Below, in pieces: positions 3,568 to 50,609 of a stretch of DNA of 64,000 nucleotides. Position numbers and translations under genes: made by a program. The stretch lies in assembly GCF_001677475.2 (NCBI RefSeq), contig NZ_CP015229.1; one strand, given 5' to 3'. The DNA is from Escherichia coli. Its GTDB lineage: Bacteria; Pseudomonadota; Gammaproteobacteria; Enterobacterales; Enterobacteriaceae. How positions within the stretch are numbered: the first letter of the stretch is position 1; each line of letters starts with the position of its first letter. Under the pieces are notes generated by a model. That model had not been told where the DNA came from. It worked only from the letters and a program-made list of their open reading frames with translations, and made no database searches.

Positions 3568-5068
<1,501 letters not shown>

Positions 5069-45117: not shown

Positions 45118-45222
45118 CTAGCCTGTCCGTTCAATAAGCAGAACGGACAAAACCAGCACAACAGCAATGGCAAAAAACGATGACGTGATAATCAGTGTCT
45201 CGACGAACATTTGATCGTTCAT
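45118..45222 (-). CDS. yoaI: small membrane protein, 34 aa
   Basis: Reverse complement reads ATGAACGATCAAATGTTCGTCGAG... ([34 protein letters not shown]); recognised as K-12 small protein YoaI; not listed in the ORF track because it is under 60 aa. Confidence 0.6.
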
Positions 45223-45391
45223 AGCATGCCCCCGGGAGATAGCTGTTTTCACGTTATTGTTAGCGTGCACAAATGGCAGTTTGATGACAGTTCGCCTGAT
45301 TTTTTATGCAAAAAACGTAAAGATTTTCTACTTCCTTCCTGCAGCAAGCGTAAAGTAAGCAGGCTTATTATTTTTTGGCAAGGAAACCACG

Positions 45392-48317: not shown

Positions 48318-48572
48318 TTATTTTTCACCAGCCGGATGGTCCCTTCGCCACAATGCCCATTCATCAATCGTTTCACCGCCCGGTAATTTGCAATTGTTGC
48401 TGACCCCTTGCGCTGTCTGCACTGGAATGAGCGTCCCGCCCTTCTGCTGGCAATAGACCGACGCCGGATTAGCCATACCAATCTGCGGCGGTTTAGGTGC
48501 TTCTGGCTGAGAAGAGGTTGAACAACCAGCCAGAACCAGCAAGCAAGGCAGAACAAAACTGATAATTTTCAT
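48318..48572 (-). CDS. yoaF: DUF333 lipoprotein
   Basis: ORF track 84 aa with lipobox LAGC. Confidence 0.75.
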   Translation of the reverse strand: MKIISFVLPCLLVLAGCSTSSQPEAPKPPQIGMANPASVYCQQKGGTLIPVQTAQGVSNNCKLPGGETIDEWALWRRDHPAGEK

Positions 48573-48754
48573 TTATTGATCTCACATATTTATCTACGCT
48601 TAGAGTATCGCGGTATCGTTTTGTTTTGCAGCACTATTTTTATTACATTCACTCAAATCATATTACGCCTTGTTTCATCTTTGTTGATGATGTTTTATCA
48701 TGCCTGCAAAGATTAAATAATCAGCATTTACCCGCCGTATCCTGGAGTTGTTTC

Positions 48755-49764
48755 GTGTCAGATCAGATTATCGCCCGCGTCTCGCAATCCCTTGCCAAAG
48801 AACAGTCACTGGAAAGTCTGGTCCGACAGCTTCTGGAGATGCTGGAAATGGTCACTGATATGGAATCAACCTACCTGACCAAAGTGGATGTCGAAGCGCG
48901 CCTGCAGCATATTATGTTTGCCCGTAACAGCCAGAAAATGCACATCCCGGAGAATTTTACCGTCTCGTGGGATTACTCGTTATGCAAACGCGCCATTGAT
49001 GAAAACTGCTTTTTCAGCGATGAAGTCCCTGACCGTTGGGGCGACTGTATTGCGGCACGCAATCTTGGCATCACCACATTTCTGAGCACGCCAATTCACT
49101 TACCGGATGGATCATTCTATGGCACGCTTTGCGCCGCCAGTGGAGTGAACGCGCGGAACAGGTTTTACAGTTATTCGCCGGACTGATTGCACAATATATT
49201 CAAAAAGAGGCGCTGGTAGAACAGCTGCGCGAAGCCAATGCCGCGCTGATAGCGCAATCGTATACCGACTCGTTAACCGGGTTGCCGAATCGGCGGGCGA
49301 TTTTTGAAAATCTGACGACGCTGTTTTCCCTCGCCCGGCATCTTAACCATAAGATAATGATCGCGTTTATCGACCTGGATAACTTCAAATTAATCAACGA
49401 TCGTTTTGGTCATAATAGTGGCGATCTGTTTCTCATTCAGGTTGGCGAGCGCCTTAATACGCTCCAGCAAAATGGCGAAGTTATTGGTCGTCTCGGCGGT
49501 GATGAGTTTTTGGTTGTTTCACTAAACAACGAGAATGCGGATATTTCGTCGCTGCGAGAACGTATTCAACAGAAAATACGTGGAGAATATCACTTAGGTG
49601 ATGTTGATTTGTATTATCCCGGTGCCAGTCTTGGCATAGTAGAAGTCGATCCTGAAACAACCGATGCAGACAGTGCCCTGCATGCTGCCGATATCGCGAT
49701 GTATCAGGAGAAAAAACACAAACAGAAAACACCTTTTGTCGCGCATCCAGCGCTACATTCCTGA
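48755..49764 (+). pseudogene. dgcP: diguanylate cyclase dgcP (yeaP) interrupted by a frameshift between the N-terminal sensor region and the GGDEF domain
   Basis: N-terminal part (GTG 48755 ... stop 49186) and C-terminal part (open from about 49036 to stop 49764, RLGGDEF motif) are in different frames and overlap over 49036-49186. Confidence 0.7.
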
Positions 49765-49796
49765 GGCGTATTCACATCCTTTTGATTGGTGATAAC

Positions 49797-49895
49797 ATGC
49801 GAATCGGTATTATTTTTCCGGTTGTAATCTTCATTACAGCGGTCGTATTTTTAGCATGGTTTTTTATTGGCGGCTATGCTGCCCCGGGAGCATAA
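49797..49895 (+). CDS. yoaK: small membrane protein, 32 aa
   Basis: ATG at 49797, MRIGIIFPVVIFITAVVFLAWFFIGGYAAPGA, stop 49893-49895; recognised K-12 small protein. Confidence 0.6.
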   Translation: MRIGIIFPVVIFITAVVFLAWFFIGGYAAPGA

Positions 49896-49897
49896 AG

Positions 49898-49972
49898 ATG
49901 AAAAAAACAACGATTATTATGATGGGTGTGGCGATTATTGTCGTACTCGGCACTGAGTTGGGATGGTGGTAA
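49898..49972 (+). CDS. yoaJ: small membrane protein, 24 aa
   Basis: ATG at 49898, MKKTTIIMMGVAIIVVLGTELGWW, stop 49970-49972; recognised K-12 small protein. Confidence 0.6.
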   Translation: MKKTTIIMMGVAIIVVLGTELGWW

Positions 49973-49980
49973 CGTCACCT

Positions 49981-50018
49981 CTAAAAAATAGCAAAGGCTG
50001 CCTGTGTGCAGCCTTTGT
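49981..50018 (-). terminator. hairpin terminator between convergent yoaJ and yeaQ
   Basis: caaaggctgc/gcagcctttg stem; on the minus strand followed by a T-run (complement of ctaaaaaata). Confidence 0.6.
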
Positions 50019-50030
50019 GCAATTTACGCG

Positions 50031-50279
50031 TTAACTTTTAATCTTCCTGTAGATAAATAGCACGACAATCGCACCAATAACGGCAACCACGAAGCTGCCA
50101 AAATTGAAGCCATCGACTTTACCAAAGCCAAACAGCGTGCTGATCCATCCGCCGACTACAGCACCGACTATTCCCAGCAGGATAGTCATAAAGAATCCAC
50201 CACCATCTTTACCTGGCATGATCCACTTCGCCAGAATACCGGCAATAAGCCCAAAAATAATCCATGACAGAATGCCCAT
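50031..50279 (-). CDS. yeaQ: GlsB/YeaQ/YmgE-family small membrane protein
   Basis: ORF track 82 aa, Gly-rich hydrophobic. Confidence 0.8.
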   Translation of the reverse strand: MGILSWIIFGLIAGILAKWIMPGKDGGGFFMTILLGIVGAVVGGWISTLFGFGKVDGFNFGSFVVAVIGAIVVLFIYRKIKS

Positions 50280-50426
50280 TGTTTCCTCACTTATCTGTTT
50301 TGCATTAGCGGGTTAGTCGCTGATAAAAAGCATAGCACAACATCGGGAGGGCAAGATTTGTGACGAGCATCACGGAGGATTTTTTTTCGATGGCGCAGAA
50401 ATTGCGCCATCAACGATCAGTGATAA

Positions 50427-50609
50427 TTACCAACCACAAACATCATGTTCGTTTTCCGTGTCATAAGAACGCACGGTATTCACCAGATCTTTTATCACTT
50501 CAGCCGCCACTTCTGGCACCAGCAAAGTCATCGGCGTCTCTGTTTCATAATCGACAGAAACGCCATTGCTGTTATTGGTGACGGTCACGGTATACGTTGC
50601 TTTGCCCAT
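50427..50609 (-). CDS. yoaG: DUF1869 protein
   Basis: ORF track 60 aa; starts 4 bp after yeaR stop (yeaR-yoaG operon). Confidence 0.7.
   Translation of the reverse strand: MGKATYTVTVTNNSNGVSVDYETETPMTLLVPEVAAEVIKDLVNTVRSYDTENEHDVCGW

What the first reader, a model, noticed from the sequence alone, without database searches (positions are those of the whole stretch)
49797..49972. Tandem small hydrophobic protein genes yoaK and yoaJ directly downstream of dgcP
Two short single-TM ORFs (32 aa and 24 aa) are separated by 2 bp and lie 32 bp after the dgcP stop; together with yoaI (34 aa, 45118-45222) they are absent from the ORF track because they are under 60 aa. They may be co-transcribed with dgcP, so the frameshift upstream could affect their expression.
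Basis: partly seen in the sequence, partly recalled or inferred. Interest (0 to 1): 0.3.

Follow-up and report, generated by a model that had tools for sequence, protein, structure and literature searches.

The report
Known small membrane genes yoaK, yoaJ
These are the already catalogued E. coli small-membrane-protein genes yoaK and yoaJ, intact and correctly placed behind a diguanylate cyclase gene (dgcP) that a 16-bp deletion has broken in this strain, so the finding is correct but ordinary.

Summary
yoaK is at 49797-49895 (32 aa) and yoaJ at 49898-49972 (24 aa). They are 2 nt apart and start 32 nt after the dgcP stop. yoaI is at 45118-45222, on the minus strand.

Both ORFs pass the curated NCBIfam models and are annotated in E. 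coli K-12 and in RefSeq genomes. Both follow dgcP in 23 of 26 enterobacterial dgcP loci, under strong purifying selection (dN/dS about 0.05 and 0.14). Conserved Shine-Dalgarno sites, a 0/+2/-4 nt junction and a shared terminator hairpin show them to be the last two cistrons of a dgcP-yoaK-yoaJ operon. Published work reports a tagged YoaK protein, membrane insertion of YoaJ and an RNA-seq call of this operon.

The dgcP frameshift is real: a 16-bp deletion between CGCCAG repeats. It leaves 610 nt probably untranslated before yoaK. Polarity on yoaK/yoaJ is therefore plausible but untested.

Function is still unknown. Helix-periodic conservation suggests that each protein binds a membrane partner through one helix face.

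By-product: YoaK-family ORFs also sit directly after repressor genes in lambdoid prophages such as HK106 and mEp234. I found no paper in the held library that discusses this.

Novelty: already known. Interest: low.

The parts
48755..49764 (+). dgcP (yeaP), diguanylate cyclase gene, here a pseudogene. It starts at GTG 48755. A 16-bp deletion between 6-bp direct repeats (CGCCAG) lies at 49134/49135. The frame shifts after codon 129 and a premature TGA follows at 49184-49186. The GGDEF frame stays open to the normal stop at 49762-49764 but has no good restart site.
   Evidence: Alignment to E. coli PCN033; sequences read; translation and restart scan. No complete E. coli genome matched the deletion junction at 99% identity or more over 80% or more of the 44-nt probe.
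49788..49793 (+). Shine-Dalgarno site of yoaK (GGTGAT), 3 nt before the ATG.
   Evidence: Pairing to the 16S 3' end is -8.8 kcal/mol, in the top 4.5% of + strand ATGs in the window. An (A)GGTGAT-like motif keeps its position across genera while the rest of the spacer diverges.
49797..49895 (+). yoaK: 32-aa single-pass small membrane protein, YoaK family (NF033821; listed as PF28021 in precomputed annotations).
   Evidence: 69.1 bits; dN/dS 0.05; best 19-aa window has mean hydropathy 2.79; helix-periodic conservation.
49886..49890 (+). Shine-Dalgarno site of yoaJ (GGGAG), inside the Pro-Gly-Ala codons at the end of yoaK, 7 nt before the yoaJ ATG.
   Evidence: GGGAG or GGGGG in all loci that carry both genes; -6.6 kcal/mol.
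49898..49972 (+). yoaJ: 24-aa single-pass small membrane protein (NF011343), probably translationally coupled to yoaK.
   Evidence: 60.4 bits; dN/dS 0.14. The junction is +2 nt here, 0 nt in Enterobacter and Lelliottia, and a -4 overlap (ATGA/GTGA) in L031 and L037.
49991..50018 (.). GC-rich hairpin between the convergent yoaJ and yeaQ genes: a bidirectional intrinsic terminator that ends the dgcP-yoaK-yoaJ unit. The T-run is better on the minus (yeaQ) strand.
   Evidence: Terminator scan. Fold energy is -21 kcal/mol with z = -3.6. A hairpin flanked by A and T runs is present after yoaJ in nearly all of the two-gene loci, despite sequence changes in stem and loop.
50031..50279 (-). yeaQ: convergent 82-aa GlsB/YeaQ/YmgE-family membrane protein gene. 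It is a neighbour, not part of the operon.
45118..45222 (-). yoaI: 34-aa small membrane protein gene named in the finding. It is unlinked, about 4.6 kb away on the opposite strand.
   Evidence: 79.8 bits. The literature reports that YoaI binds and stimulates EnvZ (PMC12648545; PMC11429745).

Best explanation
yoaK and yoaJ are genuine, translated genes. Each encodes one transmembrane helix of the inner membrane: a short basic N-terminus in the cytoplasm and a few C-terminal residues in the periplasm. They are the last two cistrons of a dgcP-yoaK-yoaJ mRNA that ends at the hairpin shared with the convergent yeaQ gene.

yoaK has its own conserved Shine-Dalgarno site. yoaJ starts 2 nt after the yoaK stop, from a Shine-Dalgarno site embedded in the last yoaK codons, so its translation is probably coupled to that of yoaK (inferred).

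The biochemical function is unknown. The mechanism I consider most likely (about 50%, inferred) is that each helix acts like other bacterial small membrane proteins such as MgrB, AcrZ or YoaI. On this view it binds a larger inner-membrane protein through its one conserved helix face and modulates that protein. The output would be tied to the conditions under which dgcP is expressed.

In this strain dgcP is dead because of the 16-bp deletion, while yoaK and yoaJ are unchanged at the protein level. If the dgcP promoter is their only one, their expression may be lowered by Rho-dependent polarity across the roughly 610 nt that are no longer translated. This is inferred and untested.
For: Shown here:
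- Exact ORFs and spacing.
- Curated family models passed.
- Same annotation in K-12 and in RefSeq genomes.
- Both genes follow dgcP in 23 of 26 loci from Escherichia, Citrobacter, Enterobacter, Lelliottia and Pseudenterobacter.
- Third-position variation and dN/dS of 0.05 and 0.14.
- Conserved Shine-Dalgarno sites.
- Junction always -4 to +2 nt.
- No terminator-like site between dgcP and yoaK, and a conserved terminator hairpin after yoaJ.
- Strong hydrophobic cores with N-terminal Arg or Lys-Lys.
- Sequence variability periodic at 100 degrees per residue: YoaK P=0.0004, YoaJ P=0.006, meaning one conserved and one variable helix face.
- No RNA-family match.

From the literature:
- yeaP-yoaK-yoaJ called as an operon from RNA-seq (PMC4620388).
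- Tagged YoaK detected in stationary phase (10.1101/511675).
- YoaJ is an integral membrane protein, N-in/C-out, and co-precipitates with RseP (PMC4597795).
- Both are cleaved by purified RseP (PMC10470546).
- YoaJ is induced by diamide (PMC12542507).

Frameshift anatomy.
Against: - No experiment on this strain was available.
- No partner protein is known. Neither protein appears in any solved structure, and a 2025 review of small membrane proteins does not mention them.
- Helix-periodic conservation would also fit homo-oligomerisation.
- An internal promoter inside dgcP cannot be excluded, so polarity may be irrelevant.
- The C-over-G enrichment downstream of the premature stop is modest, at most 1.75.
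- yoaK and yoaJ each occur without the other in some genomes, so they need not act together.
Confidence: 0.85

Rival explanations
1. The two ORFs are chance hydrophobic reading frames in the dgcP 3' untranslated region, or belong to a 3'UTR-derived small RNA, and are not protein-coding.
For: They are very short (32 and 24 codons). Many short ORFs of similar length overlap the region on both strands.
Against: Codon-position variation of 11/8/30 and 13/9/21 with dN/dS of 0.05 and 0.14 across genera. Conserved start codons and Shine-Dalgarno sites. Curated HMM matches above cut-off. No Rfam match. No significant RNA structure at either start. Published detection of the proteins.
Confidence: 0.01
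2. yoaK-yoaJ form an independent transcription unit driven by a promoter inside or just after dgcP, so the dgcP frameshift has no effect on them.
For: A sigma-70-like match (TTCACA-16-TAACAT with an upstream TG) lies at 49771-49798. yoaK-like genes function behind unrelated genes elsewhere. yoaK and yoaJ remain intact here, and in L031, next to a broken dgcP.
Against: The -10 of that match overlaps the yoaK ATG, so the transcript would start inside yoaK. The region holds fewer promoter-like matches (2) than shuffled sequence does (mean 3.8). The spacer sequence is not conserved outside Escherichia. RNA-seq in K-12 groups the three genes as one operon.
Confidence: 0.2
3. YoaK and/or YoaJ are type I toxin-like or holin-like membrane-damaging peptides rather than regulators.
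For: They are small, very hydrophobic single-helix peptides. YoaK-family ORFs sit in prophage immunity regions beside HicAB and HipA toxin-antitoxin modules.
Against: No antisense RNA or known toxin family match was found. The genes are expressed from an ordinary operon with good Shine-Dalgarno sites. In the RseP study growth inhibition is discussed for HokB, and none is mentioned in the passages I read on the tagged YoaJ and YoaK constructs. The genes are conserved as single-copy chromosomal genes under strong purifying selection.
Confidence: 0.07
4. YoaK works specifically with diguanylate cyclases, for example by tethering or regulating soluble DgcP at the membrane. On this view, with dgcP dead, yoaK here is a relic on its way to decay.
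For: YoaK-family ORFs directly follow a GGDEF gene in the dgcP loci. One locus has a different cyclase, MASE5+GGDEF, only 32% identical to DgcP in the GGDEF domain.
Against: Five distinct prophage types carry YoaK after a repressor gene with no cyclase nearby. yoaK was lost but dgcP kept in Kosakonia and in Enterobacter sp. EA-1. The second cyclase type rests on a single locus. yoaK shows no damage in this window.
Confidence: 0.15

Closest known systems
E. coli K-12 yoaK (b4676) and yoaJ (b4675), small membrane proteins of the dgcP (yeaP) locus
   Same: Identical protein sequences. Identical DNA except one synonymous base, 49958. Same 32-nt and 2-nt spacings, the same terminator hairpin and the same neighbours.
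   Different: In this window the upstream dgcP carries a 16-bp frameshifting deletion. That deletion was found in none of 5,426 complete E. coli genomes, but it is present in assembly GCA_018682815.1 and in run ERR3309125.
Characterised single-helix regulators of inner-membrane proteins (MgrB-PhoQ, AcrZ-AcrB, YoaI-EnvZ)
   Same: Size, a single transmembrane helix, inner-membrane location, stress or stationary-phase expression, and one conserved helix face (literature).
   Different: No sequence relationship. No partner is known for YoaK or YoaJ. This is a 'works like' comparison only.
Prophage-borne accessory genes next to the repressor gene (lambda rexA/rexB position) and small membrane exclusion proteins such as HK97 gp15 (recalled from my own knowledge, not tested)
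   Same: YoaK-family ORFs lie 3-104 nt downstream of the CI-like repressor gene, in the same orientation, in HK106, mEp234, mEp506, a Klebsiella phage and several prophages.
   Different: The copy in the window is chromosomal and follows dgcP, with no prophage genes nearby. No exclusion phenotype has been tested for any YoaK protein. There are no PADLOC or PHROG matches.

Membership tests
YoaK family small membrane protein (NCBIfam NF033821) | Full-length match to the 32-position family model above the curated cut-off of 32 bits | tested here: met
   69.1 bits, residues 1-32 on model positions 1-32.
YoaK family small membrane protein (NCBIfam NF033821) | One hydrophobic helix with the conserved G4, F7-P8, A15, W21-F22 and G26-Y27-A28 positions | tested here: met
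   All of these residues are present in the window protein. They are invariant or nearly so in 31 distinct family sequences.
YoaK family small membrane protein (NCBIfam NF033821) | Protein is made and inserted in the inner membrane | not testable with these tools
   Literature only: tagged YoaK detected by immunoblot in K-12 (10.1101/511675); tagged YoaK used as an RseP substrate (PMC10470546).
Protein YoaJ (NCBIfam NF011343 / PRK14760) | Full-length match above the curated cut-off of 54 bits | tested here: met
   60.4 bits, residues 1-24 on model positions 1-24.
Protein YoaJ (NCBIfam NF011343 / PRK14760) | 24-25 aa with a basic N-terminus (K/R-K), conserved T5, M8, A12, G18 and G22, and a C-terminal W-W; located directly after yoaK or dgcP | tested here: met
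   The position after yoaK is conserved in 23 loci, and the gene stands alone after dgcP in 2 loci.
Protein YoaJ (NCBIfam NF011343 / PRK14760) | N-in/C-out integral membrane topology | not testable with these tools
   Literature: topology confirmed experimentally (Fontaine et al. 2011, as cited in PMC4597795), and alkali-resistant membrane association shown there.
dgcP-yoaK-yoaJ operon | Same strand, no terminator between the cistrons, a single terminator after the last gene | tested here: met
dgcP-yoaK-yoaJ operon | One transcript spanning all three genes | not testable with these tools
   RNA-seq-based operon call for K-12 (PMC4620388). Nothing is available for this strain.
Type I toxin-antitoxin small hydrophobic toxins (Hok, Ldr, Ibs, TisB type); considered, not adopted | Cognate antisense or overlapping small RNA and a known toxin or RNA family match | tested here: not met
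   No Rfam match at E<=1 in 48400-50500. No toxin family match for YoaK or YoaJ in NCBIfam, Pfam or PADLOC.
Small-protein regulators of membrane proteins (functional class, 'works like') | Specific binding to a larger membrane protein that changes its activity | not testable with these tools
   Indirect evidence only: one conserved helix face and RseP co-precipitation of tagged YoaJ. No solved complex exists.

The most novel reading that the evidence does not exclude
YoaK is a mobile single-helix module that phages and chromosomes both append as a tail cistron to regulator genes. It follows CI-like repressors in at least five lambdoid prophage types and follows diguanylate cyclase genes on chromosomes. 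On this reading the prophage copies are made in lysogens together with the repressor. They would act on a conserved host inner-membrane protein, for example to block superinfection or change envelope physiology. The chromosomal dgcP-linked copy in this window would target the same host protein, which would explain why it stays intact after dgcP has died.
Probability: 0.15. Interest if true: 0.5.

Novelty: already known. Interest (0 to 1): 0.15.

Why it matters
For this window it matters little. The finding re-identifies two annotated E. coli small-protein genes that an ORF track with a 60-aa floor hides.

It is a useful reminder that annotation thresholds drop real genes. It also shows that a pseudogenising deletion in a promoter-proximal gene (dgcP) may silence intact downstream small genes.

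The wider value is in the by-products. YoaK and YoaJ remain functionally uncharacterised. The one-sided helix conservation, the conserved coupling, and the recurrence of YoaK behind phage repressors and behind cyclase genes give concrete, testable leads to their partners.

Tried and rejected
I used the exhaustive representative search for YoaK and dgcP-anchored loci instead.
- The original discovery papers (Hemm 2008 and 2010, Fontaine 2011, the EcoSal review) are not held. Their results are cited only through papers that quote them.
- One literature search on dgcP/yeaP was swamped by the surname Yeap.
- Pfam-A gave no significant hit for the small proteins, although precomputed annotations list PF28021:YoaK.
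- Rfam, PADLOC, PHROGs and PDB sequence searches were all negative.
- The promoter-like match at 49771-49798 was rejected as the yoaK promoter, because its -10 overlaps the start codon and the sequence is not conserved.
- An 81-nt probe across the deletion was uninformative, because BLAST joined two flanking pieces. A 44-nt junction probe settled it.
- I could not name the source organism. S. flexneri is unlikely, since its dgcP is reported intact (PMC11327459). The window is 98.5% identical to the best complete E. coli genome over 25 kb.
- Structure prediction was not run. A single 24-32-aa helix would give no searchable fold.

Full report
**Observation**

Reading the window and listing ORFs confirms every coordinate in the finding.
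- The dgcP reading frame ends with TGA at 49762-49764.
- After 32 nt, an ATG at 49797 opens a 32-codon ORF (MRIGIIFPVVIFITAVVFLAWFFIGGYAAPGA) that stops at 49893-49895.
- Two bases later (AG), an ATG at 49898 opens a 24-codon ORF (MKKTTIIMMGVAIIVVLGTELGWW) that stops at 49970-49972.
- yoaI (34 aa) is at 45118-45222, on the minus strand.

**Identity**

- Megablast against 5,426 complete E. coli genomes finds the region in 5,418 of them. The listed best hits are annotated dgcP, yoaK ('YoaK family small membrane protein'), yoaJ ('protein YoaJ') and a convergent yeaQ.
- The K-12 and PCN033 records show the same layout.
- The curated NCBIfam models are passed: YoaK 69.1 bits (cut-off 32), YoaJ 60.4 (cut-off 54), YoaI 79.8 (cut-off 45).
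- From the end of dgcP to the terminator, the window differs from K-12 by one synonymous change in yoaJ (49958, Leu21) and one base beyond the hairpin.

**The frameshift**

- dgcP starts at GTG 48755. Compared with E. coli PCN033 it lacks 16 bp at 49134/49135.
- The reference has two CGCCAG repeats 10 nt apart, and the window keeps one copy. This is the signature of slippage.
- The frame shifts after codon 129 and stops at TGA 49184-49186. The GGDEF frame remains open to the normal stop, but no in-frame start with a Shine-Dalgarno site could yield a complete domain.
- A 44-nt junction probe found no complete E. coli genome with the deletion.
- The 143-aa truncated product is on record on 17 contigs. 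Contigs from assembly GCA_018682815.1 and from run ERR3309125 are identical to the window over 3,432 bp.
- Over 25 kb the window is colinear with E. coli at 98.5% identity to the best genome. I could not name the organism. S. flexneri is reported to have an intact dgcP (PMC11327459).

**Are they real genes?**

Using K-12 DgcP as an anchor, I fetched 26 loci from species-representative genomes.
- Both small ORFs follow dgcP in 23 loci: Escherichia (including E. albertii and E. whittamii), Citrobacter, Enterobacter, Lelliottia and Pseudenterobacter.
- yoaJ alone follows dgcP in Kosakonia cowanii and in Enterobacter sp. EA-1. In Kosakonia an 'ATGAGGTAA' remnant marks the lost yoaK start.
- Neither gene is present in Symbiopectobacterium.
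- Lengths are fixed at 32 and 24 codons (25 in Kosakonia).
- Variable columns by codon position are 11/8/30 for yoaK and 13/9/21 for yoaJ. Pooled Nei-Gojobori dN/dS is 0.05 and 0.14, with near-saturated synonymous sites.
- No RNA family matches the region.
- This excludes chance ORFs and non-coding explanations.

**Expression anatomy**

- yoaK is preceded by GGTGAT at 49788-49793. It pairs with the 16S 3' end at -8.8 kcal/mol, within the top 4.5% of ATGs in the window. An (A)GGTGAT-like motif keeps its position in the other genera while the spacer around it diverges.
- The yoaJ Shine-Dalgarno site (GGGAG, 49886-49890) lies in the Pro-Gly-Ala codons of yoaK and is GGGAG or GGGGG in every locus that carries both genes.
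- The junction is +2 nt in Escherichia and Citrobacter, 0 nt in Enterobacter and Lelliottia, and a 4-nt overlap (ATGA or GTGA) in two further lineages. This pattern is typical of translational coupling. Coupling itself is inferred.
- Neither start region is significantly structured.
- No terminator-like site lies between dgcP and yoaK.
- A GC-rich hairpin at 49991-50018 (-21 kcal/mol, z = -3.6) follows yoaJ. A hairpin flanked by A and T runs is present in nearly all of the two-gene loci despite changes in stem and loop. It also serves the convergent yeaQ.
- The only promoter-like match near yoaK has its -10 over the start codon, is not conserved, and the region holds fewer such matches than shuffled sequence.

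**Literature**

- An RNA-seq-based resource reports yeaP-yoaK-yoaJ as an operon in K-12 (PMC4620388).
- Chromosomally tagged YoaK is detected in stationary phase, among the more weakly expressed of the first set of small proteins (bioRxiv 10.1101/511675).
- YoaJ is integral to the membrane. Its N-in/C-out topology is cited as experimentally confirmed. It co-precipitates with the protease RseP (PMC4597795).
- Purified RseP cleaves both proteins, with tag-dependent results in vivo (PMC10470546).
- YoaJ is said to rise in diamide-treated cells (PMC12542507).
- A 2025 review of small membrane proteins covers YoaI (it binds and stimulates EnvZ) but mentions neither YoaK nor YoaJ.
- Neither protein appears in any PDB entry.
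- From my own memory, the genes were first reported by Hemm et al. 2008. That paper is not held.

**How they probably work**

- Both peptides are dominated by one hydrophobic stretch, with Arg2 or Lys2-Lys3 at the N-terminus. This fits an N-in orientation.
- Across 31 distinct YoaK and 23 distinct YoaJ sequences, variability is periodic at 100 degrees per residue (P=0.0004 and P=0.006 against shuffles).
- In YoaK the stripe G4, F7-P8, I11-F12, A15, F18, W21-F22, G25-G26-Y27-A28 is conserved. Positions 3, 6, 10, 14, 17, 20 and 23-24 vary.
- One conserved face and one lipid-facing variable face is what is expected of a helix that packs against a specific partner or against itself.
- I therefore favour, at about 50%, the model that each acts like MgrB, AcrZ or YoaI, as a modulator of a larger membrane protein. 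This is inference. No partner is known.

**Consequence of the dead dgcP**

About 610 nt (49187-49796) are probably untranslated in this strain. Several 78-nt windows there have C/G of 1.2-1.75. Rho-dependent polarity on yoaK and yoaJ is therefore plausible but unproven, and an internal promoter cannot be excluded. The two small genes show no damage.

**By-product**

An exhaustive search with YoaK found 25 cluster representatives. Their contexts fall into two groups.

(A) Directly after a GGDEF cyclase gene:
- DgcP orthologues, including a Klebsiella-like locus and a split DgcP orthologue.
- One MASE5+GGDEF protein, only 32% identical to DgcP in the GGDEF domain.

(B) 3-104 nt after a CI-like or HTH repressor gene in prophage immunity regions:
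- This includes phages HK106, mEp234 and mEp506, where the ORF is unannotated.
- It also includes a Klebsiella phage, where the ORF is labelled 'CI transcriptional regulator'.

Further points on the prophage copies:
- They score 44-68 bits on NF033821.
- They are conserved at the protein level, with pooled pN of 0.24 against pS of 0.77.
- PGAP names them in some E. coli genomes.
- They have no PHROG or PADLOC match.
- I found no paper discussing them.
- YoaJ is absent from these prophage loci.

This does not change the verdict on the window, but it is the most novel lead.

**Verdict**

Interest is low (0.15). The open questions are their function and whether the dgcP deletion silences them.

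Noticed in passing
L032 2501-2599 (phage HK106, NC_019768 30464-30559); L030 3001-3099; L029 3001-3105; L036 2501-2611; L033 2501-2599: YoaK-family ORFs (44-68 bits on NF033821) lie 3-104 nt downstream of the CI-like or HTH repressor gene in several lambdoid phages and prophages, often before HicAB or HipA modules. They are unannotated in the HK106, mEp234 and mEp506 records, have no PHROG, and I found no paper that mentions them.
   Followed up: partly
L033 2480-2599 (Klebsiella phage ST974-OXA48phi18.2, MK448237 17516-17635): The 39-aa CDS annotated 'CI transcriptional regulator' (QBP28606.1) is in fact a YoaK-family small membrane protein ORF (62 bits for the 32-aa core). This is a likely mis-annotation.
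   Followed up: partly
window 49120-49150: The dgcP frameshift is a 16-bp deletion between two 6-bp direct repeats (CGCCAG), typical of replication slippage. It is absent from all 5,426 complete E. coli genomes searched, but present in GCA_018682815.1 and Logan ERR3309125, which are identical to the window over 3.4 kb.
   Followed up: yes
L024 (Kosakonia cowanii) about 4040-4210; L028 (Enterobacter sp. EA-1) about 4120-4200: yoaJ occurs without yoaK after dgcP, with its own strong Shine-Dalgarno site (GAGGAG or AAGGAG). In Kosakonia an 'ATGAGGTAA' remnant marks the lost yoaK start. The two small genes are therefore separable.
   Followed up: partly
L031 1345-2525: In this metagenome contig the DgcP orthologue (55% identity) is called as two ORFs (103 aa and 206 aa), while yoaK and yoaJ (ATGA overlap) are intact. 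This may be a second, independent case of a broken dgcP with preserved small genes, or an assembly error.
   Followed up: no
L034 1383-2635: A YoaK-family ORF follows a MASE5+GGDEF cyclase that is only 32% identical to DgcP in the GGDEF domain, and no yoaJ is present. YoaK is thus linked to a second, unrelated cyclase type (single example).
   Followed up: partly
protein ids P0001, P0002, P0004, P0005, P0008, P0016, P0024: Public protein collections hold chimeric 'YoaK' products that run into the yoaJ frame or another frame; for example P0002 is a YoaK-YoaJ fusion. These presumably come from frameshifted reads or assemblies at the Pro-Gly codon run near the yoaK stop.
   Followed up: no
window 39000-63900: The neighbourhood is colinear with E. 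coli (one BLAST piece, 98.5% identity to the best genome). It carries two further c-di-GMP genes, dgcJ and cdgI, whose state (intact or degraded) in this strain I did not check.
   Followed up: no
window 45118-45270 (minus strand): The mechanical ORF for yoaI extends to an upstream GTG (50 aa), whereas the annotated and family-model protein is 34 aa starting at the ATG at 45222. The finding did not state that yoaI is on the minus strand, directly abutting the yeaK stop (45117).
   Followed up: yes
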